From Thermoanaerobaculia bacterium (GTDB taxonomy: Bacteria > Acidobacteriota > Thermoanaerobaculia > Multivoradales > UBA5704), in NCBI GenBank assembly GCA_036264355.1, contig DATARD010000047.1:2763-66762 (forward strand): DNA of 64,000 nucleotides. The letters are read 5' to 3'. The first letter of the stretch is position 1; each line of letters starts with the position of its first letter. A program made the translations under genes and the position numbers. Positions 11,162 to 62,002 of the stretch are shown one piece after another. A model generated the notes under the pieces. The model was not told the origin of the DNA and made no database searches. It worked only from the letters and a program-made list of their open reading frames with translations.

Positions 11162-11178
11162 GGGGCGGCCCAGGGATC

Positions 11179-47079: not shown

Positions 47080-48705
47080 ATGGAAGGTTCAGCATCAAAG
47101 CCGGCACGTTGGATCGTTGTAGGACGGGGCGATCGTGTGGGCCGGCTCCTGCTGGAGCGCCTGGGGGAGCGGGCTCGTTTCATTCCGGACAGCGGCGGGT
47201 TTGACGACTTTGCTGCCGAGCTGGAGGCTCCCGGGACGGAGGCGATCGTCTATCGACCCCCGCTTCGCAGCGATCAAGCGGATCGTCCTGACCTGGCGGC
47301 TGCGGAGGTGTTCTTGCAGGCGTTCGCTCGGGCTGCGAAAGCTCCGGCCCGTCTCGTTCTCCTGTCGAGCGCCGCCGCGATCGATCCCAGCCATCACAAT
47401 ATTGGCTATCTCACCGAGGAGCACCGGTCGCCGGGGCGCAATCCGATCGCGCGCGCCTGGCTCGATTTCGAGGCTCTCGCCGCGGCTCGCCTGCCGGGAA
47501 TGGAACAAATTGTGCTGCGCCCGGCGCCGGTGATCTCGCACGACGGAAACAACTTCTTCGCGCGCTTGCTGCGCAGCCGGATTGCCATGGTGCCGGCAGG
47601 CTACGATCCTTCCCTCCAACTGCTCAGTGGCGAAGACCTCGCCGGAGCGGTGCTCTGCGCGCTGGAGCGTGGAGCCGGCCGGCCGGGGCTCTATCACGTG
47701 GCGCCGGCCGGCGCCATGCCGGTCCGCGGAGCGCTCCGTCTGGCGGGAGTCCGGCGTGTGGCCTTTCCCCGCTGGGGTGCCCAGCTCGACTATCTTCGCC
47801 ACAACTGGACCGTCTCGGGCGGCAAGATCGCCGACGAGCTCGGTTTCAAGCCGATGAAGACGAGCGCCGAGGCTCTGCTCGACACATTGGACGTCACCGC
47901 TGCTCCCTGTCCGAGCTTCGATCCCTACGGACTCGACACCGGCTATATCGCCGCGTATTCGCGCACGCTGTTCCATTTTCTCCACGACATCTACTGGCGG
48001 ATCGAGCACGAAGGGCTGGAGAACGTGCCACGGCAGGGACCGGCCGTTCTCACCGGCGTGCACCGCGGCTTCATGCCGTGGGACGGCGTCATGGCGCTCC
48101 ATCTGCTGCGCCGGGAGATCGGCCGCATCCCGCGTTTTCTGATCCATCCCTGTCTGATCAAGTTTCCGTTCCTGGCCAACTACATGACCAAGCTGGGCGG
48201 CCTTCTCGCCTGCCAGGAGAACGCCGACTGGGTGCTCGGCCAGGGCGAGATCCTCGGCATGTTTCCGGAGGGGATCCATGGCGCCTTCACGATGTACCGC
48301 GACGCCTACCGGTTGGGCCGTTTCGGCCGCGACGAATACGTCAAGATGGCGTTGCGCAACCGGGCGCCGATCGTTCCCTTCGTGACCGTGGGAAGCGCCG
48401 AGACCTATCCGATCCTGGCCCGGATCAATTCGCGCCTGGTGCGGCGGGTGGCCGAATGGCCGTACCTGCCGATCACTCCGACGTTTCCACTGCCCGGATT
48501 TCCACTCCCGTCGAAGTGGCACACCTGGTTCCTCGAGCCGATCCCTGTGCAGACGATGCATCCGCCGGAGGCCGCGGACGATCCGGCGGTGGTGCGGGCG
48601 CTGAGCGCCATGGTCCGCGCACGGATGGAGGCGGCGATCCAGGACATGCTGGCGCGCCGCAAGTCGGTATTCTTCGGCTCGATTTTCAAGGAAGCGACGC
48701 TGTGA
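47080..48705 (+). CDS. Fusion protein with an N-terminal NAD(P)-binding epimerase/dehydratase-like (atypical SDR) domain and a C-terminal PlsC-type acyltransferase.
   Basis: C-terminal HxxxxD (GVHRGFMPWDG) and FPEG (GMFPEGIHG) acyltransferase motifs. The N-terminal 270 aa has a Rossmann-like WIVVGRGDRVG and an SDR-like architecture. Confidence 0.65.
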   Translation: MEGSASKPARWIVVGRGDRVGRLLLERLGERARFIPDSGGFDDFAAELEAPGTEAIVYRPPLRSDQADRPDLAAAEVFLQAFARAAKAPARLVLLSSAAAIDPSHHNIGYLTEEHRSPGRNPIARAWLDFEALAAARLPGMEQIVLRPAPVISHDGNNFFARLLRSRIAMVPAGYDPSLQLLSGEDLAGAVLCALERGAGRPGLYHVAPAGAMPVRGALRLAGVRRVAFPRWGAQLDYLRHNWTVSGGKIADELGFKPMKTSAEALLDTLDVTAAPCPSFDPYGLDTGYIAAYSRTLFHFLHDIYWRIEHEGLENVPRQGPAVLTGVHRGFMPWDGVMALHLLRREIGRIPRFLIHPCLIKFPFLANYMTKLGGLLACQENADWVLGQGEILGMFPEGIHGAFTMYRDAYRLGRFGRDEYVKMALRNRAPIVPFVTVGSAETYPILARINSRLVRRVAEWPYLPITPTFPLPGFPLPSKWHTWFLEPIPVQTMHPPEAADDPAVVRALSAMVRARMEAAIQDMLARRKSVFFGSIFKEATL

Positions 48706-51059
48706 GGCCGGCCCGTCTGGTGTGTGGCGCCCTGCTCGCCATGATTCTGATCGCTGCCGCTCCGGCGGACCGCTGGTTCGAAGACGTCACCGCGCGCGCC
48801 GGTCTGGCGCACAAGCACTCCAATCGCGTCTTCCACAATCCCTACGCCGCGATCATGGCGGGCTACACGGCGCTCGGCGCCGCGGCGGCGGTGGCCGACT
48901 ACGACGGCGACGGCTATGAGGACCTCTTCGTCACCGACTCCGCGGAGAACGGCAAGAACCACCTCTACCACAATGATTTCGGAAAGACCGGCAAGCTGAC
49001 CTTTACCGACGTCGCGGCCGAAGCCGGCGTGGCCGACGGCAACGACGCCGAGAACGCCTCGGCCGATGCGCTCTGGTTTGACTACGACAACGACGGCCGG
49101 CCCGATCTGCTGCTCGTCCGCTTCGGCCACAACAAGCTCTACCACAACCTGGGCAACGGCAAGTTCCGCGACGTCACCCGCGAGGCCGGCCTCGACCGCT
49201 ATCTGAACGCGATCACCGCCATCGCCTTCGACTACGACCGCGACGGGCATGTCGATCTCTTCGTCGGCTCCTATTTCCAGCCGATCAACATTTTCCATCC
49301 CGACACGCCGCGCTTCTTTCCGGAAAGCTTCGAGACCGCCAACAACGGCGGCGGCGTCACCGTCTTCCACAACAACGGCAACGGCACCTTCACGGATGTC
49401 ACGGAGAAGGTGGGCATCCACGTCTCGGGCTGGACCCTCGACCTCGGGCACGGCGACGCGGACAACGACGGCGACGACGACCTTTACATCGCCTGCGATT
49501 TCGGCACCGACCGGTTCTTCCTCAACAATGGGAACGGTACCTTCACCGACCGTACGAAAGAGGTGATCGGCATCGACACCAAGAAGGGGATGAACGCCGA
49601 GTGGGGGGATTACGACAACGACGGCTGGCTCGACGTCTTCGTCACCAATATCACCGATGACTACCTGCGCGAGGGGAATTTTCTCTGGCGCAACAATGGA
49701 AATGGGAACGGGGGAAACCTGACGTTCTCCGACGTGGCGGCGGAGACGGGGGTGCGCGATACAGGATGGGGATGGGCCGGTAAATTCTTCGACTATGACA
49801 ACGACGGCTGGCTCGATCTCTACGTCGTCAACGGCTGGGTGTCGGCCGGACCGCAGAGCTACGTTCCCGACATCTTCGAGATGATCGTCCGCCCCGGAGT
49901 GGACTTTACCGACGCGCGCAACTGGCCGCCGATGGGCGGCAAGAGCCTCTCCGGGTACCAGAAGAAAAAACTCTTCCACAACCTTGGCGGCGTGTTCAAG
50001 GACGAGGCCGCGCGGCACGGGCTCGACTCGACGCGCGACGGCCGCGGTATTGCCGTGGCCGATTTCGACAACGACGGCCGGCTCGATCTGTTCGTGACCA
50101 ATGCGAACGCCGAGCCGTTCCTGTACCACAACATCGCTCCTGCCGCGCATTGGGCCGGTTTCGTCCTCGAGGGCCGCGCCTCCAACCGCGACGCGATCGG
50201 CGCCCAGTTGCGGCTCACCGCCGGCGGGCGGACCCTGCTGCGGTTCGTCGACGGCGGCAACGGCTTCGCCAGCCAGAGCACCCGGCGGGCCTATTTCGGA
50301 TTGGGAGCGACTGACCGCGCCGACCGCCTGGAGATCCGCTGGCCGTCGGGACGGCGGCAGGTGATCGAAAAACCACCCGTCGATCGCATCGTGCGGATCG
50401 TCGAGGGCGAGGCATCCCTCGACGATCTCGAGCGCGCGCTCGCCGCCGACCCGGACAGCCTGCGCGCCGCCAGCGAATACCGCATGGCGGTGATCAAGAC
50501 GAACGCTTACGATCGCTCGATCCCGTTCTTTGAGAAGCTGGTGGCGGATCATCCGCAGTCGGCGCATGCCTGGCTCAATTACGGCTACGCCATCGTCGAC
50601 AAGATTCCGGCCGCGGGCTCGATCACCCAGGTGATTCTGGCCAACAACGCGCTCAAGCAGTTCTCGAAATCGATCGAGCTGGAGCGGAGCTGGCTCGCCC
50701 TCTACACGCGCGGTAACAGCTATCTCTATTGGCCCAAGGTGTTCGGCCGCGCGCCGCTGGGCGTCGCGGATCTCGAAGAGGCGGTGGGGCTCGTGCGCAA
50801 GGAGGCGCAGGAGGCGAAAAAGCTCAAGCGGGTCTACGCCCGCTCGTTCGTGGCGTTAGGCGACGCCTACTGGAAGACCGAGCAGCCGGAGAGAGCACGG
50901 GCGGCCTGGGAGGAAGGATTGAAGCTCTTCCCCGGCGACGCGCAGCTCCAGGCTCGCCTGGCTCACGAAGGGGACGAGCTGACCGCCTATATCGACGATC
51001 AGCTCGATCCCAACAAGCGGGTGGACACCGATCTCAAACCGCTGCTGGACGGGGATTGA
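48702..51059 (+). CDS. Secreted FG-GAP/VCBS-repeat protein with an ASPIC/UnbV domain and C-terminal TPR (CRTAC1-like paralog 1).
   Basis: A GTG start overlaps the upstream stop (GTGA). Signal peptide MRPARLVCGALLAMILIAAAPA. Repeated Ca-binding DxDxDG loops (DYDGDGYEDLFV, DYDNDGRPDLLL). ASPIC/UnbV core GGNGFASQSTRRAYFGLG...LEIRWPSGRRQ, then TPR helices. The track start at 48078 is over-extended. Confidence 0.75.
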   Translation: MRPARLVCGALLAMILIAAAPADRWFEDVTARAGLAHKHSNRVFHNPYAAIMAGYTALGAAAAVADYDGDGYEDLFVTDSAENGKNHLYHNDFGKTGKLTFTDVAAEAGVADGNDAENASADALWFDYDNDGRPDLLLVRFGHNKLYHNLGNGKFRDVTREAGLDRYLNAITAIAFDYDRDGHVDLFVGSYFQPINIFHPDTPRFFPESFETANNGGGVTVFHNNGNGTFTDVTEKVGIHVSGWTLDLGHGDADNDGDDDLYIACDFGTDRFFLNNGNGTFTDRTKEVIGIDTKKGMNAEWGDYDNDGWLDVFVTNITDDYLREGNFLWRNNGNGNGGNLTFSDVAAETGVRDTGWGWAGKFFDYDNDGWLDLYVVNGWVSAGPQSYVPDIFEMIVRPGVDFTDARNWPPMGGKSLSGYQKKKLFHNLGGVFKDEAARHGLDSTRDGRGIAVADFDNDGRLDLFVTNANAEPFLYHNIAPAAHWAGFVLEGRASNRDAIGAQLRLTAGGRTLLRFVDGGNGFASQSTRRAYFGLGATDRADRLEIRWPSGRRQVIEKPPVDRIVRIVEGEASLDDLERALAADPDSLRAASEYRMAVIKTNAYDRSIPFFEKLVADHPQSAHAWLNYGYAIVDKIPAAGSITQVILANNALKQFSKSIELERSWLALYTRGNSYLYWPKVFGRAPLGVADLEEAVGLVRKEAQEAKKLKRVYARSFVALGDAYWKTEQPERARAAWEEGLKLFPGDAQLQARLAHEGDELTAYIDDQLDPNKRVDTDLKPLLDGD

Positions 51060-52783
51060 TGGTGCGCCGTTTCGTACTGGCGGCCCTGGCTCTTTTCGCG
51101 GCGTCTCTCGCTGTCGCGGCGCCGATCCGTTTCGAGGAGATCGGCGAGAAAGCTGGCGCGCGTTTCGTGCACCACACCCACAAGTTCACCGGCAAGAACG
51201 CCGACGTGCTCGGCATGTTCACCTCCGGCGGTGCCGCGGTCGCGGTGGGCGATTTCGACGGCGACGGCGATGACGATCTGTTCATCACCGACTCCGGCAC
51301 CGGCCGCACCAGCCATCTGCTGCGGAACAACTTCGCCGAGACCGGCAAGCTCACGTTCACCGACGTCACCGCCGAGGCTGGGGTGGGAGGCGGCAACGAT
51401 CCGCATTCGATCGTCTCCGACGCCATCTGGTTCGACGCCGACAACGACGGCCGGCCGGATCTCCTGGTCGCCCGTTTCGGCACGCCGATCCTCTATCACA
51501 ACGAGGGGAACGGAAAGTTCCGTGACGTCACGGCGGCCTCCGGGCTCAACAAATTCGCCAACACGATCGCCGTCATCGCCTTCGATTACGACAACGACGG
51601 CCGTCTCGATCTGCTGTTCGGCAACTATTTTCCGCCCGTCAACCTGATCGATCTCCCGACGCCGCACGTGCTGCCCAACAATCTCGACGCCGCGGACAAC
51701 GGCGGTGGCGTCACCCTGTGGCGGAACGTGACGCCGCCCGGCTCCTCGGATCTCCGTTTCGTCGACGTGACCGAGCAGGCCGGTCTGGCGAAAGACACCC
51801 AGTGGACCCTCGACGTCGGCCACGCCGACTTGAACAACGACGGCTGGCAGGACCTCTATCTGGCCGACGACTACGGCACCGATCATCTATTCATCAATCA
51901 GGGGGGCACCTTCCGCGACGTCACGAAGACGGCGGTGGGCTTCGACACCAAGAAGGGGATGAACGTCGATTTCGCCGACTACGATCACGACGGCTGGCTG
52001 GACATCTATGTCACCAACATCACCGATGAATACATGAAAGAGTGCAACATGCTCTGGCACAACAACCGGGACGGCACGTTCACCGATCTGGCCCGGGAGA
52101 GCGGCACCTGCAATACTCTCTGGGGCTGGGCCGCCAAGTTCGGCGATTTTGATGACGACGGCTGGGAGGATCTGTTCGTGGTGAACGGCCTGCGCTCGGC
52201 GGGGCCGAAGAATTATATCCCGGTGCTGCTCGACATGATCGTCACGCCGGGGATCGATTTCACTGATGTGAACAACTGGCCGCCGATCCATGACATGAGC
52301 TGGAGCGGCCATCAAAAGAAGAAGCTCTTCCGGAATCTGGGAGATCAGACCTTCAAGGAGGTGGCCGCCGAGGCCGGCGTCGCCAACGATCTCGACGGCC
52401 GGGGGATCGGCGTGGCGGACTTCGACAACGACGGCCTGCTCGATCTCTACGAGACCAATGTCGATCAGCCCTCCCTGCTCTATCATGGCGTCTCGGCGCC
52501 GCATGGACACTGGATCGAGCTGACTCTGGTGGGCACGAAGTCGAACCGCGATGCGATCGGCGCCCGTGTGACGGTGCGAGCGGGCGCCAACACCTGGATT
52601 CGAGAGGTGAACGGCGGCAACGGCTACGCGAGCCAGAGCTCGAAGCGGGTGCATGTCGGACTGGGTACCGCCACCAGGATCGATTCGCTGGTGGTGCGCT
52701 GGCCGAGCGGCCGGGTGGAAAGCTTCACGGTGCCGGTCGATAAGATTTCGACGCTCAAGGAAGGGGAGGGAACCGCAAAGTGA
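51059..52783 (+). CDS. Secreted FG-GAP/VCBS plus ASPIC/UnbV protein (CRTAC1-like paralog 2).
   Basis: The ATG overlaps the upstream TGA (tgATG). Signal peptide MVRRFVLAALALFAASLAVAA. FG-GAP loops are present, plus ASPIC/UnbV GGNGYASQSSKRVHVGLG...LVVRWPSGRVE. Confidence 0.75.
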   Translation: MVRRFVLAALALFAASLAVAAPIRFEEIGEKAGARFVHHTHKFTGKNADVLGMFTSGGAAVAVGDFDGDGDDDLFITDSGTGRTSHLLRNNFAETGKLTFTDVTAEAGVGGGNDPHSIVSDAIWFDADNDGRPDLLVARFGTPILYHNEGNGKFRDVTAASGLNKFANTIAVIAFDYDNDGRLDLLFGNYFPPVNLIDLPTPHVLPNNLDAADNGGGVTLWRNVTPPGSSDLRFVDVTEQAGLAKDTQWTLDVGHADLNNDGWQDLYLADDYGTDHLFINQGGTFRDVTKTAVGFDTKKGMNVDFADYDHDGWLDIYVTNITDEYMKECNMLWHNNRDGTFTDLARESGTCNTLWGWAAKFGDFDDDGWEDLFVVNGLRSAGPKNYIPVLLDMIVTPGIDFTDVNNWPPIHDMSWSGHQKKKLFRNLGDQTFKEVAAEAGVANDLDGRGIGVADFDNDGLLDLYETNVDQPSLLYHGVSAPHGHWIELTLVGTKSNRDAIGARVTVRAGANTWIREVNGGNGYASQSSKRVHVGLGTATRIDSLVVRWPSGRVESFTVPVDKISTLKEGEGTAK

Positions 52784-55700
52784 TCTGGCGCCTCGGGCTC
52801 ATCCTTCTTCTCCTGCCGGCCGTGCTCCTCGGAGGCGCGGAGGAGGAGCTCCTCTGGCACCATCGCAATCTCGGCAAAGCGTTCTACGAAAACCCGACAA
52901 CGCAATATGAAGCGGTTGCGGAATTCAAGCAGGCTTTGGAGCTTGCGCCGGACTCTCCCCGCGAGCGCCTCAATTACGGCCTCGCCCTGCTCAAGGCGGG
53001 CAAGGTGGAGGAGGGGATCGCCGAGCTTCAGAAGGTGCAGAAGCAGGCGCCGGAGCTGCCGCACACCTGGTTCAACCTGGGGATCGCGTTCAAAAAGGAT
53101 TCGAAGTACGACAAGGCGATCGTCCAGCTCGAAGGGATGGCTGCCCGCGTGCCCGACGAGCCGGTCACCCACTACAACCTCGGCACGCTCTACAAGCTGA
53201 CCGGCAAACCCGAGGCGTCGCTGCGGGAGTTCGAGACGGCGGCCCGCCTCGGTCCCGATCTTGCCGGTCCTCGGTTTCAGCTTTACAACGCGTATCGCCA
53301 GGCCGGCCGCGCCGAGGAGGCGGCGCAAGAGCTGGAGCGTTTCAAGGCCAACAAAGCGCGCCAGGAAGGCGCCGCCGTCCCCGAGGACCTGGAGTGGAGC
53401 TGGTACGCGGAAGTGCTGGATGACATCACGCCATGGACGGAAAAGTCCGCCGCCGGCAGGAAACCCGCGCCGAAGCTGAAGCTCACGCCCACAGAGCTGG
53501 CCCGCGGCCTCGACTCCGTCACCGCCGGCCTGGCGGTCCTCGACGCGGACGGCGACGGCGTGCCGGACCTGCTCGCCTGGTCGAAGCAGGGAATTCTCCT
53601 TTTCCGGAGCGGAACGGTGAGAATCGAGGCGACCGGTCTCGAAGAGCTGCGCAATGTCATCGCTGTCGTTCCCGGCGATTTCGACAACGACGGCCTGCCC
53701 GATCTCTGCGTGCTCAATCCGTCACCGTCGCTCTGGAAGAATACCGGCGGCGGACATTTCGCACGAGTCGCAGCCACTCTTCCGACAGGACCGTTCGCGG
53801 CGGCGATCTGGCTGGACGTGGATCATGATTACGATCTCGATCTCATTCTGCTCGGCGAGCGCTCGGCCCTGCTGCGCAACCAGGGGGCGGCCGGTTGGAG
53901 CGACGAAACCGCCCGTTTCCCGTTCGCGCGCCGCAAGGCGATCGCCGGCGTCGTGCTCGACGCTGTCTCCGACACCCAGGGGCGGGACCTCGTGGTCTCC
54001 TACGCCGACCGTCCCGGCGTCCTCTACCACGATCGCCTCGGCGGCTTCTATGTGGCGGAGGAGCTGCCCGGTCTGCCCGCGGGAGCGCGTTGGCTGACCG
54101 CCTGGGACACCGACCAGGACGGCTGGACCGATCTCGCGGCCGCCGTGCCCGCGAGGGTCCTCATGCTGCACAACCGGCGGAGCCAATGGGGCAAGCTCGA
54201 GGCGGAGGCCAGTCCCACCGCGTCCGGTCCCTTCGTCTTCGCCGACCTGACCAACCAGGGCGTAAGCGATCTGATGACTCTTCCTGGCATCGTTGCAATC
54301 ACTGCCGCGGATTTCGACGCCGACGGCCGCACCGACCTCGCCACCGTCGGAACCGACGGCATCCTGCGCCGGCTGCATAACGAAACCGTGACCGACAACC
54401 GCTGGATCTCCGTGACGCTCGAAGGAGTGAAAAATCTGAAGCTCGCTCCCGGCGCCTCCGTGGAGGTCAAGGCAGGCGCGAGCTTCCAGAAGCAGGCCTG
54501 GGCCGGGGTCCCGCTCGTTTTCGGCCTGGGGGAGAGACAGAGCGTCGACACGGTCCGCATCACCTGGCCCAATGGCCTCATTCAGAACGAAACGAAGCAG
54601 GCCGCCGGTGCGCACAAATTCAAAGAAGCGCCGCGCCTCTCCGGCTCGTGCCCGATGATCTTCACCTGGGATGGTGCCGGGTTCCGTTTCATCACCGACG
54701 TGCTCGGCGTCGCGCCGCTCGGCGCCAGCTCGGGTGACGGCAATTACTTTCCGGTGGATCATGACGAATACGTGCAGATCCCCGGCGAAGCGCTCGCCGT
54801 CAAGGACGGCAGGTACGAGGTGCGGATCACCGAAGAGCTGCGCGAGGTGTCCTATCTCGACGCGGTCCATCTGCTGGCGCTCGATCATCCGACGGACACA
54901 GAAATCTTTACCAATGACAAGTTCAAGAGCCCGCCGTTTCCCGAGTACAGGCTGTTCGGCGTGCAGCGGCGCATCTATCCCTCGGCCGCCCGCGACGGGA
55001 ACGGGAAAGATGTGCTGCCGCGACTTCTGGCGCGCGACAACACCTATCCGGACGGCTTCCGGCACAACGCCGCCGGAGTCGCCGAGCTGCATACGCTGGA
55101 TCTCGATTTCAAAGGTGCGGCGCCGGACGGCCGCGCTGTGTTGATCCTTTCGGGCTGGGTCGATTGGGCCGACGGCAGCACCTTCCTCGGCGCCGCGCAG
55201 GAATCCAAAGACGGCCTCGTCTTCCCCTATCTTCAGGTCAAGGACGCGGCCGGGCAGTGGCGCACGGTGATCGAGGACATGGGGATGCCTTCGGGCAAGC
55301 CGAAGACGATCGCTGTCGATCTGACCGGCAAGTTCCTCTCTGCCTCGCGGGAGGTGCGCATCGTCACCGGTCTCTGCGTCTATTGGGACGAGATTTTCCT
55401 CGCCGAGCAGAGCGGGCCGCCGGAGGTGATGCAGACCGAGCTCGTTCCACGGACGGCTGATTTACGCTTCCGCGGCTTCTCGCGGCCGGTGATCGATCCA
55501 GAGCGCCGCCAGCCCGAACAATTCGACTATCAGAGCTGGATGCCGGCCGGCGTGGCGGGAATGACGACCTGGAACCCCACGCCCGGCCTCTACACCCGCT
55601 ACGGCGACGTCCGCCCGCTCCTTGCCGGCGTGGACGATCTGCTGGTGATCCTGGGCTCCGGTGACGAGGTCCGCCTGACCTTCGACGCAGCGGCCCTGCC

Positions 55701-55947
55701 GCCGCTCCAAGCGGGTTGGCGCCGCGACTTCCTGCTCCTGGTCGACGGCTGGGCCAAGGACGCCGACGCCAACACCGCCTTCTCGCAGACCGTGGAGCCG
55801 CTCCCGTTCCACGGCATGTCCAGGTATCCCTATCCGCCGGAGGAGCATTTTCCAAACGACTCGATCCATACCCTCTACCGGGAGATGTACAACACCCGTC
55901 CCGCGCTGCGCCTGGTCCACCCGTTGCGCGGTCAGGAGGAGCCATGA
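52780..55947 (+). CDS. Secreted N-terminal TPR + FG-GAP + ASPIC/UnbV-like protein with a ~400-aa uncharacterised C-terminal extension (paralog 3).
   Basis: A GTG start overlaps the upstream stop. Signal peptide, then TPR helices, FG-GAP loops (DADGDGVPDLL, DFDNDGLPDL, DFDADGRTDL) and ASPIC-like GASFQKQAWAGVPLVFGLG...VRITWPNGLIQ. The novel C-terminal region starts at CPMIFTWDGAGFRF. Confidence 0.7.
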   Translation: MIWRLGLILLLLPAVLLGGAEEELLWHHRNLGKAFYENPTTQYEAVAEFKQALELAPDSPRERLNYGLALLKAGKVEEGIAELQKVQKQAPELPHTWFNLGIAFKKDSKYDKAIVQLEGMAARVPDEPVTHYNLGTLYKLTGKPEASLREFETAARLGPDLAGPRFQLYNAYRQAGRAEEAAQELERFKANKARQEGAAVPEDLEWSWYAEVLDDITPWTEKSAAGRKPAPKLKLTPTELARGLDSVTAGLAVLDADGDGVPDLLAWSKQGILLFRSGTVRIEATGLEELRNVIAVVPGDFDNDGLPDLCVLNPSPSLWKNTGGGHFARVAATLPTGPFAAAIWLDVDHDYDLDLILLGERSALLRNQGAAGWSDETARFPFARRKAIAGVVLDAVSDTQGRDLVVSYADRPGVLYHDRLGGFYVAEELPGLPAGARWLTAWDTDQDGWTDLAAAVPARVLMLHNRRSQWGKLEAEASPTASGPFVFADLTNQGVSDLMTLPGIVAITAADFDADGRTDLATVGTDGILRRLHNETVTDNRWISVTLEGVKNLKLAPGASVEVKAGASFQKQAWAGVPLVFGLGERQSVDTVRITWPNGLIQNETKQAAGAHKFKEAPRLSGSCPMIFTWDGAGFRFITDVLGVAPLGASSGDGNYFPVDHDEYVQIPGEALAVKDGRYEVRITEELREVSYLDAVHLLALDHPTDTEIFTNDKFKSPPFPEYRLFGVQRRIYPSAARDGNGKDVLPRLLARDNTYPDGFRHNAAGVAELHTLDLDFKGAAPDGRAVLILSGWVDWADGSTFLGAAQESKDGLVFPYLQVKDAAGQWRTVIEDMGMPSGKPKTIAVDLTGKFLSASREVRIVTGLCVYWDEIFLAEQSGPPEVMQTELVPRTADLRFRGFSRPVIDPERRQPEQFDYQSWMPAGVAGMTTWNPTPGLYTRYGDVRPLLAGVDDLLVILGSGDEVRLTFDAAALPPLQAGWRRDFLLLVDGWAKDADANTAFSQTVEPLPFHGMSRYPYPPEEHFPNDSIHTLYREMYNTRPALRLVHPLRGQEEP

Positions 55948-58730
55948 AGCTGACTCGATGGATCACGATTCTGTTTCTCGTGCTGCTGGTGAACACCGCC
56001 TACCTGGCGGCTTTCGCCGCGCCGACGGTGTTCTACATGGCCAACGTGCTGCTGCACCTCGTTCTCGGGGTGGCGCTGGCGATCGCCGGAGCGATCCTGC
56101 TCTGGCGGCGCCCTGAGCTGCGCACCGGTCTCACCGCAGCTATCGTCCTTTTCGGCGTCGCCCTCGCCGCCGGTCTCTGGCTGACGATCGAGGGCAATCT
56201 CCTGCAATACCGCTGGGTGCTGTGGACCCATATCGCGTCCGCCGGGCTGGGAGTCGCCGCTCTCGCCGTCTGGTCGGTGCGGCGAGCCTCTCCATCTTTC
56301 CGGCGAGCGCTCACCGCGGCCATCGCCCTGCTCGTGCTGCTGCCGGCCGGGGCAGCTCTCTGGCGGCGCAGCCATCCGAATCCGGACGACCGCATCCACA
56401 ATCCGCTGATCGTTCCCGCCTCGATGCAGGAAGAGGGCGGCGGACCGAAGTCGCCGTTCTTCCCCTCGTCGGCGAAGACCAACGTCGGCGGCATCATTCC
56501 GTCGAATTTCTTCATGGACTCGGCCACCTGCGGCGAGTGTCACAAGGACATCTATGCGCAGTGGAACAGCTCGGCGCACCACTTCGCGTCGTTCAACAAT
56601 CAGTTCTACCGCAAGTCGATCGAATACATGCAGGACACGGTCGGCCCGCAGCCGAGCAAATGGTGCGCCGGCTGCCACGATCACGCGGTGTTCTTCAACG
56701 GCCGTTTCGAGCGCCCGATCAAGCAGCAGCTCGACACTCCCGAAGCGCACGCCGGTCTCGCCTGCACCTCCTGCCATGCCATCACCCACGTGGACAGCTC
56801 GATGGGCAATGGCGGCTTCACGATCGAATATCCGCCGCTCCATGAGCTGGCCAACAGCAAGAACCCGGTGATCAAGGCGGCGGATCACTTCCTCACCTAT
56901 CTCGATCCGGAGCCGCACCGGCGGACGTTCATGAAGCCGTTCATGAGGATGGACTCGGCCGAGTTCTGCGCCTCCTGCCACAAGGTCCATCTCGACGTGC
57001 CGGTCAACTCGTACCGCTGGTTCCGCGGCTTCAACGACTATGACAACTGGCAGGCGAGCGGCGTGTCGGGGCAGGGCGCGCGTTCCTTCTATTATCCGAA
57101 GGCGACCAAGACCTGCGCCGACTGCCACATGCCGCTGGTCGATTCGCAGGACCCCGGCAACCGCGGTGGCCAGGTGCACTCGCACCGCTTCCCGGCGGCC
57201 AACACGGCGCTCGCCTTCGTCAACCACGACACCAAACAGATGGAGACGGAGGAGAAGTTTCTGCAATCGGGTTTTATCACAGTGGATCTGTTCGCCGCGT
57301 CGCCGGTGGAGGAGGGGAAGGGGGAGACGCCGATGCTGCGGCGGGCGGCCGCGGACGCCTCCGGTCCCAAGCTGATGACCACGTTTGCCGTCGGCGAGGA
57401 GGCGGAGCAGAGCGGGCCGGTGGTGATCCGGGACGTGGGGAAAGTCGCCGCGCCGCTTGACGTGGCCGGTCCCACCCTCAAGCCGGGCTCGACGGTGCGG
57501 GTCGACGCGGTGGTGCGCACGCGGACGATCGGTCACTTTTTCCCCGGCGGCACGGTGGACGCGTTCGACGTCTGGCTGGAGCTGCAGGCGAAGGACGCGA
57601 CCGGGAAAGTGATCTTCTGGAGCGGCCAGGCCGAGGACGACGGAAAGGGGCCGGTCGAGCCGGGCGCGCACTTCTACCGTTCCTACGCACTCGACGGCGA
57701 AGGAAACCCGATCAACAAGCGCAACGCCTGGCAGGCGCGCAGCGTGCTCTACACGCGGCTGATCCCGCCCGGCGCCGCCGACGTCGTGCACTACCGCATG
57801 CAGATCCCGGCCGACGCCCAGGGTCCGGTTACCCTGACCGCCAAGCTCAACTATCGCAAATTCGCCTGGTATTACACCCGGTTCGCCTATGCCGGCCAGC
57901 CGAAGCCCGGGCAGTCGCCGGAGCTGATCTCGGCCCACTTCAACAATCTCGAATACTCCTTCGACAAAGCGAACATTCCGGCCAACGTCTCGGGACAGAT
58001 CAAAGGGGAGATCCCGGATCTGCCGATCCTCGTGCTGGCCAAGGCGGAGACGACGCTGGAGCTGGGAGACGGCAAAGCCGATTGGAAGCCGGCAGTGCGC
58101 AAGGAGGATCGCGAACGGTGGAACGACTGGGGGATCGGATTGCTCCTCCAGGGCGATTTGAAGGGCGCCGAATACGCGTTCCAACGGGTGACCGAAGCCG
58201 AGCCGGGTTACGCCGACGGCTGGCTCAACGTCGCCCGCGCGCTGATCCGCGAAGGCGAGGTGGAGGCGGCCAAGCCCTACGTGCAAAAGGCCCTCGCCAT
58301 CGATCCGAGCCTGGGGCGCATCTACTTCTTCAAGGCGATGATCGAAAAAGCGGACGGGGACTACGACGCCGCGCTCGCCTCCCTGCGCACGGTGGAGTCG
58401 AAATATCCGCGCGACCGGGTGGTGCTCGATCAGATTGCGCGTATCCTATTCCTCAAGCGGCAGTACCGCGAGGCGGTGGCGGTGTTGGAGCGGGTCTGTA
58501 TGATCGATCCTGAAGATTTGCAGATGCACTATACGGCGATGCTCTGCTGGCGCGCCCTGGGTGACAGCGCGAAGGCGGCGCGCGAGGAGGCGCTGTTCCG
58601 CCGTTTCAAGGCCGAGGAGTCGTCGCAGGCGATCACCGCGAAACAGCGGATGATCAGCCCGGAGGATAACAACGAGCGGCAGCAGATCCACGACCACGAG
58701 AGCGTGCCGCTGCGGGAGAATCGATCATGA
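55944..58730 (+). CDS. Membrane-anchored pentaheme c-type cytochrome with an N-terminal five-TM domain and C-terminal TPR repeats.
   Basis: Five CxxCH motifs (CGECH, CAGCH, CTSCH, CASCH, CADCH). Five hydrophobic helices in the first ~230 aa. The C-terminal ~250 aa are TPR-like. The ATG overlaps the upstream stop (ATGA). The track start at 55716 is over-extended. Confidence 0.8.
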   Translation: MKLTRWITILFLVLLVNTAYLAAFAAPTVFYMANVLLHLVLGVALAIAGAILLWRRPELRTGLTAAIVLFGVALAAGLWLTIEGNLLQYRWVLWTHIASAGLGVAALAVWSVRRASPSFRRALTAAIALLVLLPAGAALWRRSHPNPDDRIHNPLIVPASMQEEGGGPKSPFFPSSAKTNVGGIIPSNFFMDSATCGECHKDIYAQWNSSAHHFASFNNQFYRKSIEYMQDTVGPQPSKWCAGCHDHAVFFNGRFERPIKQQLDTPEAHAGLACTSCHAITHVDSSMGNGGFTIEYPPLHELANSKNPVIKAADHFLTYLDPEPHRRTFMKPFMRMDSAEFCASCHKVHLDVPVNSYRWFRGFNDYDNWQASGVSGQGARSFYYPKATKTCADCHMPLVDSQDPGNRGGQVHSHRFPAANTALAFVNHDTKQMETEEKFLQSGFITVDLFAASPVEEGKGETPMLRRAAADASGPKLMTTFAVGEEAEQSGPVVIRDVGKVAAPLDVAGPTLKPGSTVRVDAVVRTRTIGHFFPGGTVDAFDVWLELQAKDATGKVIFWSGQAEDDGKGPVEPGAHFYRSYALDGEGNPINKRNAWQARSVLYTRLIPPGAADVVHYRMQIPADAQGPVTLTAKLNYRKFAWYYTRFAYAGQPKPGQSPELISAHFNNLEYSFDKANIPANVSGQIKGEIPDLPILVLAKAETTLELGDGKADWKPAVRKEDRERWNDWGIGLLLQGDLKGAEYAFQRVTEAEPGYADGWLNVARALIREGEVEAAKPYVQKALAIDPSLGRIYFFKAMIEKADGDYDAALASLRTVESKYPRDRVVLDQIARILFLKRQYREAVAVLERVCMIDPEDLQMHYTAMLCWRALGDSAKAAREEALFRRFKAEESSQAITAKQRMISPEDNNERQQIHDHESVPLRENRS

Positions 58731-60406
58731 AGCCTGCTCTGCCCGCTTTTTTCCTCGCCGCCTGTGGCCTGGCCGCGCTCGTGGCCCGCGGCGCGGCGCC
58801 CGCCGCCGAGAGCACTGTCCACTTTACGGACATCACAGCGTCAGCGGGTATCCGGTTCATCCACAACAGCGGCCGGGCGGGCAAGAAATATCTGCCCGAG
58901 ACGCTGGGCTCCGGCGCCGCTTTTTTCGACGCCGACGGCGACGGCTGGCTCGACATCCTGCTGATCAACGGCCGCGACTGGCAGCCCAAAGGCCGCAAAT
59001 CTCTGCCGGCGCTCTATCACAACAACCACGACGGCACGTTCACCGACGTCACCCGGGGGAGCGGCCTCGACGTCGAGCTCTACGGTCTCGGCGTCGCCAT
59101 CGCGGACTACGACAACGACGGCCGGGAGGACGTCTACATCACCGCGCTCGAAGGCGACCGTCTCTATCACAACGAGGGACATGGCAAGTTCAAGGACGTG
59201 ACCGCGTCCGCGGGGATCCGGAACGCGTCGTTCGGTACCAGCGCCGCATGGCTCGACTACGACCGCGACGGCAAGGCCGACCTGTTCGTGGCGAACTACG
59301 TGCAATGGAGCGCGGAGAAGGACCTCTGGTGCTCGCTCGACGGCGCGAGCAAGTCCTACTGCACGCCGGAGTCGTACAAGGGGAGCTCGTCGAAGCTCTA
59401 CCACAATCTCGGCAACGGCAAGTTCGAGGACGTCAGCCAGAAGGCCGGGGTGGGCGATCCGACCAGCAAGTCGCTCGGCGTCGCGGTGCTCGACGTCAAC
59501 GGCGACGGCTGGCCGGACCTCTTCGTGGCCAACGACACGCAGCCCAACAAGCTCTATATCAACCAGAAGAACGGCACGTTCTCTGAGCAGGGCTTGCAGG
59601 CCGGTGTCGCTTATGGCGAGGACGGCGTCGCGCGCGGCGCGATGGGGGTGGACGCGGCGGACTACGACCGCTCGGGCCGCCAGCACCTGCTGGTGGGCAA
59701 CTTCTCGAACGAGATGCTGGCGCTCTACCACAACGAGGGGAACGGCGTCTTCGTCGACGAGGCGCCGGCCTCGGCGGTGGGGCGGGAGAGCCTGCTGACC
59801 CTCACCTTCGGCGTGTTCTTCTTCGACTACGACCTCGACGGCCGGCCGGACATCTTCGCCGCGAACGGCCACATCGAGGAGGAGATCGGCCGCGTGCAGC
59901 CGCGGGTGCACTACCGGCAGGCGCCGCTGGTGTTCCGCAATCTGGGGGGCGGCAAGTTCGCGCCGGTGACCGCGCAGCTCGGGCCGGATCTCGCCAAGCC
60001 CATGGTGGCCCGCGGCGCGGTCTACGGCGACATCGATCACGACGGCGATCTCGACGTGCTGGTGACCACCAACGGCGGCCCGCCGCACCTCTACCGCAAC
60101 GACGGCGGCAACCGCAACCACTGGCTCTCCGTGCGCACCGTGGGGACGAAGTCGACGCGTGACGGCCTGGGAGCGGTGGTGCGGGTGACGAGCGCCCTGG
60201 GCAAGCAGTGGGGGATGGTGCGCAGCGGCTCCTCCTACTGCTCGCAGAGTGATCTCGCCCTCACTTTCGGGCTTGGCCGCGACAGCCGGGTGGCGGCGGT
60301 GGAGGTGGAGTGGCCGAGCGGCGTCCGGCAGCGCTTCGCCGATCTGCCGGTGGACCGCCTGCTCCTCATCGACGAAACGAAGGGGATCGTCGCCGGGGGG
60401 AGGTGA
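58727..60406 (+). CDS. Secreted FG-GAP/VCBS plus ASPIC/UnbV protein (CRTAC1-like paralog 4).
   Basis: ATGA overlap with the cytochrome gene. Signal peptide MKPALPAFFLAACGLAALVARGAAPA. FG-GAP loops (DADGDGWLDILL, DYDNDGREDVYI, DYDRDGKADLFV). ASPIC/UnbV core GSSYCSQSDLALTFGLG...VEVEWPSGVRQ. Confidence 0.78.
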   Translation: MKPALPAFFLAACGLAALVARGAAPAAESTVHFTDITASAGIRFIHNSGRAGKKYLPETLGSGAAFFDADGDGWLDILLINGRDWQPKGRKSLPALYHNNHDGTFTDVTRGSGLDVELYGLGVAIADYDNDGREDVYITALEGDRLYHNEGHGKFKDVTASAGIRNASFGTSAAWLDYDRDGKADLFVANYVQWSAEKDLWCSLDGASKSYCTPESYKGSSSKLYHNLGNGKFEDVSQKAGVGDPTSKSLGVAVLDVNGDGWPDLFVANDTQPNKLYINQKNGTFSEQGLQAGVAYGEDGVARGAMGVDAADYDRSGRQHLLVGNFSNEMLALYHNEGNGVFVDEAPASAVGRESLLTLTFGVFFFDYDLDGRPDIFAANGHIEEEIGRVQPRVHYRQAPLVFRNLGGGKFAPVTAQLGPDLAKPMVARGAVYGDIDHDGDLDVLVTTNGGPPHLYRNDGGNRNHWLSVRTVGTKSTRDGLGAVVRVTSALGKQWGMVRSGSSYCSQSDLALTFGLGRDSRVAAVEVEWPSGVRQRFADLPVDRLLLIDETKGIVAGGR

Positions 60407-60490: not shown

Positions 60491-60769
60491 ATGAACGATC
60501 AAGAAGTTTCCGCCAAGATCAAGCAGATCATCTCGAACATCGCGGGTCTCGACCCGCAGAAGATTCCCGACGGATCTTCGCTGCGCGACGATCTGAAGCT
60601 CGATTCCCTGTCGCTGCTGGAGATCGGCGTCGACGTGGACCTGGCCTTCCAGCTCAACCTTCCCGACGAGCGCTACAAGGAGATCGCGACGCTGCCGCAG
60701 ATGGTGCATCTGGTGCAGGAGCGCCGGAGTGAGATCGCGGCCGGTCAGGTCGAGGTCGTCCACCGATGA
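60491..60769 (+). CDS. Acyl carrier protein.
   Basis: 92 aa with the phosphopantetheine attachment motif DLKLDSLSLLEIGVDVD. It lies immediately upstream of a KS pair. Confidence 0.8.
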   Translation: MNDQEVSAKIKQIISNIAGLDPQKIPDGSSLRDDLKLDSLSLLEIGVDVDLAFQLNLPDERYKEIATLPQMVHLVQERRSEIAAGQVEVVHR

Positions 60770-62001
60770 GCCCATCCGGTGTGCGTGTCGCGGTGACGGG
60801 CCTCGGGCTCGTCACCCCGGTGGGCATTGGTCGCGACGAGGTGTGGCAGGGGTTGCTCGATGGGCGTAGCGGATTTGCGCCCATCGAGTCGTTCGATTCG
60901 AGCCGCTTTCCGGTCCACCTCGGCGCCGAGGTGCGGGGCTTCCACCCCGAGCTCTGGCTGCGCATCCTCGATCCCAGCCAGCTCGGCCGCGCCTCGCAGC
61001 TCGCCGCCGCCGCGGCCCGCATGGCGCTCGACGATTCCGGTATCGCCGGCATCGCCGGGATTGCCGGGATCGACGCCGCGCGGGCCGGCGTTGTCATGGG
61101 CACCACCTCCGGCGAGCCGCGCGAGGTGGAGCGCTTCGACGACCGCTACCTGGCCGGCGGGCTCGACGGGCTGGGGCCGGAATTCATCGGCCTCTATCCC
61201 TGCCACATGATCGCCGTCCACGTGGCCCGCGAGGTCGGCTTCGCGGGCCCGGTCACCATGATCCCCACCGCCTGCGCGGCCGGCAACTACGCCATCGCCC
61301 ACGCCTTCGACCTGCTCCGCGCCGGGCGCGCCGACGTCATGCTGGCCGGCGGCGCCGACGCCTTTTCGCGCATCACCTACGCCGGCTTCTCCCGCCTCGG
61401 TGCCATCGCTCCGGAAAGGTGCCAGCCGTTCGACCGCAATCGGAGGGGGATGATCCCCGGCGAGGGCGCCGGCGTGCTGGTCCTGGAGCCGCTCCCGCGT
61501 GCGCTCGCCCGCGGCGCTCGCGTCTACGCCGAGGTGGCCGGCTACGGCCTTTCCTGCGACGCGCATCACATGACCGCCGCGCATCCGGAAGGGGACGGCG
61601 CGGCGCGCGCCATGCAGCGCGCGCTCGCCGACGCCGGCATCGGCCCGGAGGACGTTTCCTACATCAGCGCGCACGGCACCGGCACGCCCACCAACGACCG
61701 CCTGGAGATCCTGGCGGTGCAGCGCGTCTTCGGCGCCGCGGCGGCGAAGACGCCGATGAGCTCCATCAAGTCGATGATCGGCCACACCATGGGCGCCGCC
61801 TCGGCCATCGAGGCGGCGGTCTGCTCGCTGGCGGTTTCGACCGGCCGCATTCCGCCCACCATGAACCTGGAGGAGCCGGACGGCGACCTCGACTACGTGC
61901 CCAACCACGCCCGCGAGCACGACGTGCGGGTGGCGATGAACAACGCCTACGCCTTCGGAGGCAACAACGCCTCGGTGATCTTTCAGCGAGCCGGAGCCTG
62001 A
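60766..62001 (+). CDS. Beta-ketoacyl-ACP synthase (KS-alpha, FabF/type-II-PKS-like, active).
   Basis: Catalytic Cys in PTACAAGNYA, His in SAHGTGTPTND, His in KSMIGHTMGAAS. ATGA overlap with the ACP gene. Contains a GIAGIAGIAGI tripeptide repeat. Confidence 0.85.
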   Translation: MSPSGVRVAVTGLGLVTPVGIGRDEVWQGLLDGRSGFAPIESFDSSRFPVHLGAEVRGFHPELWLRILDPSQLGRASQLAAAAARMALDDSGIAGIAGIAGIDAARAGVVMGTTSGEPREVERFDDRYLAGGLDGLGPEFIGLYPCHMIAVHVAREVGFAGPVTMIPTACAAGNYAIAHAFDLLRAGRADVMLAGGADAFSRITYAGFSRLGAIAPERCQPFDRNRRGMIPGEGAGVLVLEPLPRALARGARVYAEVAGYGLSCDAHHMTAAHPEGDGAARAMQRALADAGIGPEDVSYISAHGTGTPTNDRLEILAVQRVFGAAAAKTPMSSIKSMIGHTMGAASAIEAAVCSLAVSTGRIPPTMNLEEPDGDLDYVPNHAREHDVRVAMNNAYAFGGNNASVIFQRAGA

Positions 62002-62002
62002 G

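What the first reader, a model, noticed from the sequence alone, without database searches (positions are those of the whole stretch)
47080..60406. Tightly translationally coupled six-gene operon: SDR-PlsC acyltransferase, four secreted FG-GAP/ASPIC (CRTAC1-like) paralogs and a membrane pentaheme cytochrome
Every junction overlaps start and stop (GTGA, tgATG, GTGA, ATGA, ATGA). This implies stoichiometric co-expression of an NAD(P)-binding/PlsC-type acyltransferase fusion, three integrin-like Ca-binding beta-propeller + ASPIC/UnbV proteins (one with N-terminal TPR and a novel 400-aa C-domain), a five-TM, five-heme c-type cytochrome with C-terminal TPR, and a fourth ASPIC protein. ASPIC/UnbV proteins are abundant but functionally unknown. 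Their obligate coupling to a periplasm-facing multiheme cytochrome and a lipid acyltransferase suggests an extracytoplasmic redox/lipid-modification complex that is not described. The operon appears to continue, after an 84-bp gap, into ACP-KS-CLF-HMGR genes.
Basis: partly seen in the sequence, partly recalled or inferred. Interest (0 to 1): 0.72.

Follow-up and report, generated by a model that had tools for sequence, protein, structure and literature searches.

The report
Membrane pentahaem cytochrome paired with CRTAC1-like propellers
A soil acidobacterium carries a tightly packed gene block whose conserved core, in hundreds of species, is a membrane-anchored five-haem cytochrome followed by a secreted calcium-binding propeller protein; no function is known for the pair, and here it sits inside a lipid/polyketide gene cluster.

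Summary
Six co-directional genes (47080-60406) have start/stop overlaps at all five junctions, and the domain calls are right except that the 'SDR' half of gene A is not supported. The organism is a Thermoanaerobaculia (Acidobacteriota) MAG.

Comparative data split the block into layers.
- Core: cytochrome E (5 TM helices, 5 haem c motifs, beta domain, TPR) followed by FG-GAP/ASPIC protein F. They are adjacent in 72/73 acidobacterial species loci and in 50/60 much more diverged metagenome loci. The gap is 10 nt or less in 49/77 loci.
- Accessory: D precedes E in 25/65 loci; B-C-D together in 12/60.
- Gene A belongs to the flanking ACP-KS-CLF-HMGR-flavoprotein-RPE65 lipid module, not to the propeller set. 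That module is linked to E-F only in one sublineage.

The periplasmic part of E is distantly related to T. tepidum pentahaem c552 and to the polysulfide reductase MccSep, but lacks MccSep's catalytic Sec/Cys. Two invariant TM histidines, a GHxFPGGT loop and a C-terminal HxH tail are conserved across the family and unexplained.

Most likely this is a quinone-pool-linked periplasmic redox module whose TPR platform docks the propeller proteins. The substrate is unknown. The pairing is undescribed in the searchable literature. Interest is moderate to high.

The parts
47080..48705 (+). Gene A: 541-aa cytoplasmic acyltransferase (PlsC/LPLAT-type C-terminal half; N-terminal half unassigned). It belongs evolutionarily to the flanking lipid/PKS-like module.
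   Evidence: PF01553 E=3.6e-10 at residues 307-435. N-terminal half: RmlD_sub_bind E=0.13 only and no PDB match. No hydrophobic segment. A lies next to the HMGR/amine-oxidase genes in L039, L062 and L066.
48702..51059 (+). Gene B: 785-aa secreted FG-GAP propeller + UnbV_ASPIC + C-terminal TPR domain (the TPR is a separate gene in many relatives).
   Evidence: The split version is seen in L084, and B gives two-piece tblastn hits in other loci.
51059..52783 (+). Gene C: 574-aa secreted FG-GAP propeller + UnbV_ASPIC, 53% identical to B.
52780..55947 (+). Gene D: 1055-aa secreted protein. N-terminal TPR, degenerate FG-GAP/ASPIC, then a conserved uncharacterised all-beta C-terminal region (residues ~621-1055).
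55944..58730 (+). Gene E: 928-aa cytochrome. 5 TM helices (N-in, C-out), five CXXCH haem c sites (C196, C241, C274, C342, C391), beta domain (~440-715), TPR (720-885) and a conserved tail with an HxH motif.
58727..60406 (+). Gene F: 559-aa secreted (possibly lipoprotein, LAAC motif) CRTAC1-like FG-GAP propeller + UnbV_ASPIC. It is the cognate partner of E.
   Evidence: Domains. Human CRTAC1 structure 9etn matches at E=1.7e-22. 209/559 residues are >=97% invariant in 72 species. Adjacency statistics.
60491..60757 (+). Acyl carrier protein, the first gene of the lipid/PKS-like module after an 84-nt gap.
   Evidence: PF00550 E=5e-8; sequence.
60766..63232 (+). KS (60766-62001, active-site Cys present) and a CLF-like second ketosynthase (62003-63232, no active-site Cys).
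63340..64000 (+). HMG-CoA-reductase-family gene, cut by the window end. In a 96%-identical relative it is followed by an amine-oxidase-type flavoprotein, a second FAD protein and an RPE65-family oxygenase.
   Evidence: PF00368 E=1e-47; L082 gene table.

Best explanation
The block is one transcription unit built around a conserved two-gene envelope module.

Components:
- E is an inner-membrane protein with five TM helices. Its pentahaem c domain, Ig-like beta domain and TPR domain face the periplasm.
- F, and in this lineage its paralogues B, C and D, are Sec-exported Ca2+-binding FG-GAP propellers with an ASPIC beta-sandwich.

Proposed mechanism, all steps inferred:
1. E exchanges electrons with the membrane quinone pool through its TM domain. 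Two invariant histidines near the periplasmic face are candidates for a haem b or quinol site.
2. E relays the electrons along five c haems.
3. E uses its TPR platform, and possibly its conserved HxH tail, to hold the propeller proteins. These bind the still-unknown extracytoplasmic substrate or target.

In this sublineage the module has been nested inside a type-II-PKS-like lipid/polyene cluster (A, ACP, KS, CLF, HMGR, two flavoproteins, RPE65). It may therefore act on, or depend on, that product here. That link is not a general property of the E-F pair.

Shown: gene order, overlaps, domain content, topology prediction, deep conservation of the E-F adjacency, and distant homology of E to c552/MccSep.
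Inferred: physical E-F contact, quinone coupling, direction of electron flow, and the substrate.
For: - Five junction overlaps.
- E->F adjacent on the same strand in 72/73 species loci spanning Thermoanaerobaculia, Holophagales, Bryobacterales, Vicinamibacterales and a Zixibacteria bin.
- E->F gap of <=10 nt in 49/77 loci.
- An FG-GAP/ASPIC gene directly downstream in 50/60 metagenome loci whose E-type protein is only 30-71% identical to E, and in a 38%-identical member (L089).
- E is extremely constrained: 319/928 residues are >=97% invariant, the haem domain is 83% identical across classes, and all 80 orthologues have five CXXCH.
- The positive-inside topology puts the haems in the periplasm.
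- TM His38 and His96 are invariant in the orthologues and >=90% conserved at 25-45% identity.
- The periplasmic profile hits pentahaem c552 5ze8 (E=0.002) and MccSep 9wt9 (E=0.06) collinearly over the haem and beta domains. MccSep is a five-haem cap plus Ig-like stem (bioRxiv 10.1101/2025.11.18.688581).
- TPR domains occur in three of the five exported proteins.
- A CRTAC1-type gene is also embedded between periplasmic haem-protein genes (HZS-like) in other bacteria (PMC12758564).
Against: - No redox cofactor site is known or evident in FG-GAP/ASPIC proteins.
- The AF2 model of E is unreliable in the haem region (pLDDT 54), so no haem-ligand or interface geometry is available.
- The TM domain matches no known quinol-binding or haem b family.
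- Some distant E-type genes lack any ASPIC neighbour (L085, L088, L171).
- The single apparent E-F fusion (P0426) keeps F's signal peptide, so it is probably a stop-loss or assembly indel.
- No expression or biochemical data exist.
Confidence: 0.45

Rival explanations
1. Envelope or matrix-glycan system. The propeller proteins are Ca2+-dependent binders or processors of an extracellular polymer (polysaccharide or matrix). E is mainly a TPR scaffold whose haems sense redox state or feed electrons to oxidative polymer chemistry.
For: - Distant E-type genes sit in polysaccharide clusters with glycosyltransferases, heparinase II/III, a flippase and UDP-glucose dehydrogenase (L085, L088), or overlap a GH16 gene (L086).
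- CRTAC1 is an extracellular matrix protein (established knowledge; 9etn hit).
- From my own knowledge, not tested here: PL11 rhamnogalacturonan lyases are Ca2+-binding propellers with FG-GAP-like repeats.
Against: - No CAZy-type catalytic domain was detected in B, C, D or F.
- E-F-only loci have no conserved glycan genes nearby.
- Extreme conservation of five haem sites argues for real electron transfer.
Confidence: 0.22
2. One reading: a dedicated extracytoplasmic redox/lipid-modification complex in which B-F act on the product of the A/ACP/KS/CLF/HMGR pathway.
For: - B-F lie between A and the ACP-KS-CLF-HMGR genes here and in close relatives (L082, L084).
- The D-E-F set is followed by KS-CLF-HMGR in Bryobacterales/Terriglobia loci as well (L022, L029, L033, L066, L074, L077, L080, L081), and is flanked by that module in L039 and L062.
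- Patatin-type lipase genes recur beside the module.
Against: - Most E-F pairs have no lipid genes nearby: about 10/58 close loci and 0/80 diverged loci.
- A is predicted cytoplasmic.
- No lipid-binding or lipid-modifying domain was detected in B-F.
Confidence: 0.15
3. E is a membrane-tethered polysulfide/sulfur reductase of the MccSep type, with the propellers as accessories.
For: - Weak collinear similarity to MccSep.
- Partial NCBIfam ExtKL hit, E=1.4e-7, over the first haem motif.
- Five haems plus a beta stem, as in MccSep.
Against: - The position aligned with catalytic Sec325 is an invariant Thr (GHFFPGGT).
- The periplasmic part has no cysteine outside the five CXXCH motifs, so no equivalent of the haem-ligating Cys239 exists.
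Confidence: 0.04
4. The genes are merely neighbours, packed tightly by genome compaction, with no functional relation.
For: Four-nt overlaps are common in high-GC compact genomes (established knowledge).
Against: E-F adjacency survives across several classes of Acidobacteriota (plus one Zixibacteria bin) and down to about 30% identity, while all other neighbours change.
Confidence: 0.03

Closest known systems
MccSep (ExtKL, G. sulfurreducens polysulfide reductase; PDB 9wt8/9wt9) and T. tepidum pentahaem cytochrome c552 (PDB 5ze8)
   Same: Five c-type haem motifs in an N-terminal helical region, followed by a beta-sandwich domain. There is a collinear weak sequence match that includes the GH..P.G loop (paper read).
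   Different: E carries a 5-TM N-terminal anchor, a C-terminal TPR domain and an HxH tail. It has Thr in place of the catalytic Sec/Cys and no haem-ligating Cys. MccSep is a soluble periplasmic homotetramer. E pairs with an ASPIC protein.
Human CRTAC1 / bacterial 'CRTAC1 family' (FG-GAP + UnbV_ASPIC) proteins
   Same: B, C and F have the FG-GAP propeller plus ASPIC domain and a signal peptide. F matches the CRTAC1 structure 9etn at E=1.7e-22.
   Different: No function is known for the bacterial members. Here one orthogroup (F) is locked to a multihaem cytochrome gene, and D adds TPR and a novel beta region.
HZS-like alpha / beta-gamma haem-propeller gene clusters that flank a CRTAC1-family gene in Planctomycetota, S. 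fumaroxidans and Paludibaculum (PMC12758564)
   Same: A CRTAC1-type FG-GAP gene is embedded among genes for periplasmic c-type haem proteins.
   Different: The haem proteins there are hydrazine-synthase homologues (propeller plus haem), not a TM-pentahaem-TPR protein. No homologue of them is present in this window.
Inner-membrane multihaem quinol dehydrogenases (NapC/NirT/CymA; Geobacter ImcH and CbcL)
   Same: Same general logic: a membrane-anchored multihaem c cytochrome with periplasmic haems that could link the quinone pool to periplasmic partners. This is a comparison from established knowledge.
   Different: No significant sequence match (Cytochrom_NNT E=0.051). The TM architecture is different (5 helices with a conserved His pair), and E has added Ig-like and TPR domains.
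Aryl-polyene / highly reducing type-II PKS lipid clusters (KS + CLF-like KS + ACP + LPLAT acyltransferase)
   Same: The flanking module has ACP, KS with an active-site Cys, a Cys-less second KS and a PlsC-type acyltransferase. A FabG-type KR is present in Bryobacterales versions.
   Different: It additionally has an HMG-CoA-reductase-family enzyme, two flavoproteins and an RPE65-family oxygenase. No product is known.

Membership tests
MccSep family (multihaem cytochrome c selenoprotein) | Five conserved haem c binding motifs | tested here: met
   Five CXXCH in E and in all 80 orthologues. In distant members the first motif may be CX4CH.
MccSep family (multihaem cytochrome c selenoprotein) | Conserved Sec/Cys at the U325 position | tested here: not met
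   The HMMER alignment places U325 (Ala in the mutant chain) opposite invariant T537 in GHFFPGGT.
MccSep family (multihaem cytochrome c selenoprotein) | Haem-2-ligating cysteine (C239) | tested here: not met
   All ten Cys of the periplasmic haem/beta region lie in CXXCH motifs. The only other Cys residues (852, 868) are in the TPR.
MccSep family (multihaem cytochrome c selenoprotein) | Ig-like beta-sandwich stem after the haem cap | tested here: inconclusive
   The model shows beta strands at 445-707, but pLDDT is mixed. The sequence match in this region is weak.
CRTAC1 / ASPIC-UnbV family (B, C, F) | FG-GAP propeller repeats with DxDxDG Ca2+ motifs plus a C-terminal UnbV_ASPIC domain and a secretion signal | tested here: met
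   PF13517 E<=1e-46 and PF07593 E<=5e-18 for B, C and F. N-terminal hydrophobic segment present. 9etn hit. D meets this only weakly (ASPIC E=2.5e-6, partial).
PlsC/LPLAT acyltransferases (A, C-terminal half) | PF01553 domain with HX4D (motif I) and FPEG (motif III) | tested here: inconclusive
   PF01553 E=3.6e-10, above cutoff. The sequence shows MFPEGIHG (motif III), but motif I reads HRGFMPWD (H-X6-D), read.
Short-chain dehydrogenase/reductase (A, N-terminal half) | Rossmann TGxxGxxG motif and catalytic YxxxK; significant SDR/epimerase profile match | tested here: not met
   Only RmlD_sub_bind at E=0.13, 11.8 bits against a cutoff of 27. No PDB hit. The sequence has VVGRGDRVG and no clear YxxxK.
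NapC/NirT/CymA quinol dehydrogenases | Single N-terminal TM helix plus a tetrahaem NapC/NirT domain | tested here: not met
   Five TM helices and five haems. PF03264 gives only E=0.051.
Type-II PKS / APE-like KS-CLF pair (flanking module) | KS with active-site Cys next to a paralogous KS lacking it, with a discrete ACP | tested here: met
   KS has ...PTACAAG...; CLF has ...TVAAGEASG... at the corresponding place. Pfam hits. KS and CLF are 30% identical.

The most novel reading that the evidence does not exclude
The TM-pentahaem-TPR cytochrome and its cognate CRTAC1-like propeller form a previously unrecognised, widespread periplasmic redox enzyme. The cytochrome family has about 3,200 clusters at 50% identity, and relatives are encoded in more than 570 reference genomes. 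In this reading the propeller/ASPIC protein is the substrate-binding or catalytic subunit. That would give the first biochemical role for the ASPIC/UnbV/CRTAC1 superfamily. The TM His pair and the C-terminal HxH tail would be new cofactor- or partner-binding elements.
Probability: 0.3. Interest if true: 0.8.

Novelty: new variant of a known kind. Interest (0 to 1): 0.6.

Why it matters
Acidobacteriota are among the most abundant soil bacteria and are hard to culture, and most of their conserved envelope proteins have no assigned role. ASPIC/UnbV (CRTAC1-like) proteins form large paralogous families in bacteria and have a human homologue of clinical interest, yet no bacterial member has a known function.

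This gives a concrete entry point. One ASPIC orthogroup is locked, over deep evolutionary distance and often with overlapping start and stop codons, to an exceptionally conserved membrane pentahaem cytochrome. That defines a small, testable two-protein system:
- co-purification of E and F;
- spectroscopy of E;
- deletion of either gene.

It also flags an uncharacterised cytochrome family related to the recently solved sulfur reductase MccSep but with different active-site chemistry. The nesting inside a PKS-like lipid cluster in one lineage offers a second handle on the substrate.

Tried and rejected
1. AF2 model of full-length E from a 20-sequence alignment. The haem region came out below pLDDT 50, and the Foldseek search against PDB returned only TPR proteins. 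It was not usable for fold assignment of the haem or beta domains.
3. A profile of the D C-terminal region against PDB sequences gave no hit.
4. A's N-terminal half against Pfam and PDB gave no significant hit.
5. Promoter, terminator and Rfam scans gave nothing beyond chance. These scans are weak for Acidobacteriota.
6. Literature searches for ASPIC/UnbV, CRTAC1 in bacteria, and HMGR-containing KS/CLF clusters found almost nothing relevant.
7. The apparent E-F fusion P0426 was rejected as Rosetta-stone evidence. F's signal-peptide-like segment is retained at the joint, and the contig comes from a metagenome assembly in which a 1-nt error at an overlapping junction would fuse the frames.
8. 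The small radical-SAM gene upstream of E in E-F-only loci looked like a maturase lead. By its sequence motifs (my reading, not confirmed by a family search) it looks like QueE, a housekeeping queuosine enzyme.
9. The first metagenome scan with a very diverse alignment failed for lack of conserved stretches. It was repeated with a narrower alignment.
Full report
**1. What is in the window**

The region lies in a high-GC genome (about 0.64-0.72). Protein E is 100% identical to a protein of a Thermoanaerobaculia (Acidobacteriota) MAG, annotated only as 'tetratricopeptide repeat protein'. An identical 14-kb JGI metagenome contig also exists (L001).

Six co-directional ORFs fill 47080-60406. The preceding gene (45950-46966, a CN-hydrolase) is on the other strand, so the block starts at 47080.

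- JGI's independent gene calls reproduce four of the five.
- For the A/B junction, NCBI's call in a 96%-identical relative has the 4-nt overlap. The GTG start also gives B a normal signal peptide.
- No promoter-like, terminator-like or Rfam element interrupts the block. These scans are weak evidence in this phylum.

**2. Domain content**

- B, C and F are FG-GAP propellers with a UnbV_ASPIC domain. B also has a C-terminal TPR region, which is a separate gene in many relatives.
- D has an N-terminal TPR, a degenerate propeller/ASPIC part, and then about 435 residues with no Pfam hit and no PDB sequence match.
  - A reasonably confident model of this region (pLDDT 74, pTM 0.79) is all-beta.
- E has five hydrophobic helices. 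Positively charged loops place the N-terminus inside and the haem domain in the periplasm. It has five CXXCH motifs, a beta-rich region and TPRs at 720-885.
- B, C, D and F each have one N-terminal hydrophobic segment, consistent with a signal peptide. A has none.
- A's C-terminal half is a PF01553 acyltransferase.
- The 'SDR' label for A's N-terminal half rests only on a sub-threshold hit (E=0.13), and nothing appears in PDB. I treat it as unconfirmed.

Downstream, ACP, KS, a Cys-less second KS (CLF-like) and an HMG-CoA-reductase-family gene are confirmed. In the 96%-identical relative the series continues with an amine-oxidase-type flavoprotein, a second FAD protein and an RPE65-family oxygenase.

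**3. Synteny: the block is layered**

I analysed the best 80 in detail. They come from Thermoanaerobaculia, Holophagales, Bryobacterales, Vicinamibacterales, Terriglobia and one Zixibacteria bin, with E at 67-81% identity.

Results from tblastn with all window proteins:

| Arrangement | Loci |
|---|---|
| F directly follows E on the same strand | 72 of 73 with enough flank |
| D directly precedes E | 25 of 65 |
| B, C and D all present upstream | 12 of 60 |
| KS/CLF/HMGR within 10 kb | 10-11 of 58 |

The E/F gap is 10 nt or less in 49 of 77 loci. A 4-nt overlapping start is available in many more.

ORF clustering over all loci shows that nothing else is consistently conserved around E-F.
- Some genomes carry two E-F pairs, one 'full' and one bare (L050 and L055 are from one MAG).
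- In bare loci the neighbours are unrelated, or coincidental. An example is the small radical-SAM gene just upstream, which by its sequence motifs looks like QueE (my reading, not confirmed by a family search).

To test deeper conservation I searched the periplasmic part of E against 1.84 billion representative proteins. The family has 3,221 clusters at E<=1e-3 and 825 at E<=1e-30. I then fetched 80 metagenome loci of diverged members, 30-71% identical to E.
- An FG-GAP/ASPIC gene is directly downstream on the same strand in 50 of 60 loci with at least 1.5 kb of flank.
- An FG-GAP/ASPIC gene is somewhere within 6 kb in 64 of 76.
- A D-type gene is upstream in 23 of 56.
- KS, HMGR or A homologues occur in 0 of 80.

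Individual look-ups agree.
- A 38%-identical member overlaps a 969-aa ASPIC gene.
- A 48%-identical one has a convergent ASPIC gene and a TPR gene.
- Two others instead sit in polysaccharide clusters, followed by a GT1 and an APH-like kinase.
- One is solitary.

The E-F pair is therefore the ancient unit. D is a frequent accessory. B and C are lineage-specific additions.

**4. Where gene A belongs**

In Bryobacterales/Terriglobia loci the order is ACP-KS-CLF-HMGR-(KR)-amine oxidase-...-A (L039, L066; inverted in L062). In the window's clade A sits upstream of B (L048, L082, L084). The propeller/cytochrome genes are thus nested between A and ACP.

A is therefore a component of the lipid/PKS-like module. 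It is predicted to be cytoplasmic.

The two modules are linked in two classes of Acidobacteriota despite rearrangement. That argues for some functional connection in that sublineage. Patatin-type lipase genes also recur there. The connection is not a property of E-F in general.

**5. What E is**

E is unusually constrained.
- 319 of 928 residues are at least 97% invariant in 80 species.
- The haem domain averages 83% identity.
- All orthologues keep five CXXCH motifs.

A profile of the periplasmic part finds the T. tepidum pentahaem cytochrome c552 (5ze8, E=0.002) and the G. sulfurreducens polysulfide reductase MccSep (9wt9, E=0.06). The aligned segments are collinear in the haem region, at the fifth haem motif and in the beta domain. 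MccSep is described as a five-haem helical cap on an Ig-like stem, with catalysis by Sec325 and the haem-ligating Cys239.

In E the loop aligned with Sec325 reads GHFFPGGT, with an invariant Thr at that position. There is no cysteine outside the haem motifs in the periplasmic domain. E therefore shares the fold family at best and fails the catalytic membership tests.

Three further features are conserved even among members at 25-45% identity:
- two TM histidines (His38 and His96 here), both near the periplasmic face;
- the GHxFPGGT loop;
- a C-terminal [IVFY]-H-x-H motif after the TPRs.

None of the three has a known role. The TM domain matches no Pfam family.

**6. What F is**

F orthologues form a tight orthogroup. 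209 of 559 residues are at least 97% invariant, and F is only about 32% identical to B and C. Its only solved relative is human CRTAC1 (9etn, E=1.7e-22).

The literature searched holds essentially nothing on bacterial ASPIC/UnbV function. One paper notes a CRTAC1-family gene embedded between genes for hydrazine-synthase-like periplasmic haem proteins in several non-anammox bacteria (PMC12758564). That is an independent case of this protein type keeping company with c-type cytochromes.

**7. Most likely mechanism**

I favour a periplasmic redox module (confidence about 0.45). In it, E connects the quinone pool to five periplasmic c haems through its TM domain, and its TPR platform holds F and, where present, D, C and B. 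These proteins bind the substrate or target.

- Shown: operon-like packing, periplasmic placement of all partners, deep and tight E-F linkage, conserved haem sites, and TPR domains in three of the five exported proteins.
- Inferred: physical contact, quinone coupling, direction of electron flow, and the substrate.

Rivals:
- a glycan or matrix-processing or scaffolding role (0.22);
- an MccSep-like sulfur reductase (0.04);
- coincidence (0.03).

One apparent E-F fusion protein (P0426) is not counted as evidence. It retains F's signal peptide at the joint.

**8. Verdict**

- The cytochrome-ASPIC coupling is real, ancient and, as far as I could find, undescribed.
- The six-gene 'obligate complex', the SDR call and the lipid-modification function are not established.

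I rate it a new variant of a known kind: a membrane multihaem cytochrome with a periplasmic propeller partner. The chance that it is a genuinely new enzyme system is real but unproven.

Noticed in passing
window 55944-58730 (E); family members P0241-P0390, alignment A4: All E-type proteins share three features, even at 25-45% identity. They are two TM histidines (His38 and His96 here), a GHxFPGGT loop in the beta domain, and a C-terminal [IVFY]-H-x-H motif after the TPRs (IHDHES here). None has a known role. In distant members the first haem motif may be CX4CH instead of CXXCH.
   Followed up: partly
L170 8001-12563 (P0426): A 1520-aa ORF that reads as an E-F fusion (cytochrome-TPR-FG-GAP-ASPIC). 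It keeps F's signal-peptide-like segment at the joint, so it is probably a stop-loss or an assembly indel at the overlapping junction rather than a true fusion.
   Followed up: yes
L082 17361-22784; window 63340-64000: The lipid/PKS-like module continues beyond the window. After the HMG-CoA-reductase-family enzyme come an amine-oxidase/CrtI-like flavoprotein, a second FAD protein with weak Trp-halogenase/lycopene-cyclase similarity, and an RPE65-family oxygenase. This is an unusual, apparently undescribed combination with KS/CLF/ACP.
   Followed up: partly
L022, L029, L033, L074, L081 (between F and ACP); L170 12585-13748: Patatin-type phospholipase genes recur beside the E-F module. In Bryobacterales they carry what looks, from the sequence, like an N-terminal cyclic-nucleotide-binding domain.
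   Followed up: no
L085, L088: Distant E-type cytochrome genes with no ASPIC neighbour are followed by a GT1 glycosyltransferase and an APH-like kinase. They lie inside polysaccharide-synthesis clusters with heparinase II/III, a flippase and UDP-glucose dehydrogenase.
   Followed up: no
window 2413-8652 (+): A 2079-aa protein with Kelch propeller repeats and a Peptidase_C25 (gingipain-type) domain. It lies in a stretch of lower GC (0.60-0.62, against about 0.68 elsewhere), so it may have been acquired horizontally.
   Followed up: no
window 2-2287 (-): A TIR-domain protein with C-terminal TPRs, cut by the window start. It could be a defence or signalling protein.
   Followed up: no
window 19279-22095 (+): A 938-aa protein combining a NACHT NTPase domain with a C-terminal FGE-sulfatase (formylglycine-generating-enzyme-like) domain.
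   Followed up: no
window 10477-13233 (+): A 918-aa fusion of an Asp/Arg beta-hydroxylase domain with DUF4915 (E=8.5e-123).
   Followed up: no
L083 3716-7069: Thermoanaerobaculia loci with a bare E-F pair carry, a few kb upstream, a cassette of 3-hydroxyacyl-CoA dehydrogenase, ACP, acyl-CoA dehydrogenase and a HAD-like protein. From memory this resembles methoxymalonyl-ACP (FkbH-K) biosynthesis. It is probably just local synteny.
   Followed up: no
window 44292-45455 (+), 43713-44273 (+): A GSDH-type (soluble glucose/sorbosone dehydrogenase-like) propeller gene, preceded by a MerR regulator, lies just upstream of the divergent promoter region. No link to the block was seen in relatives.
   Followed up: partly
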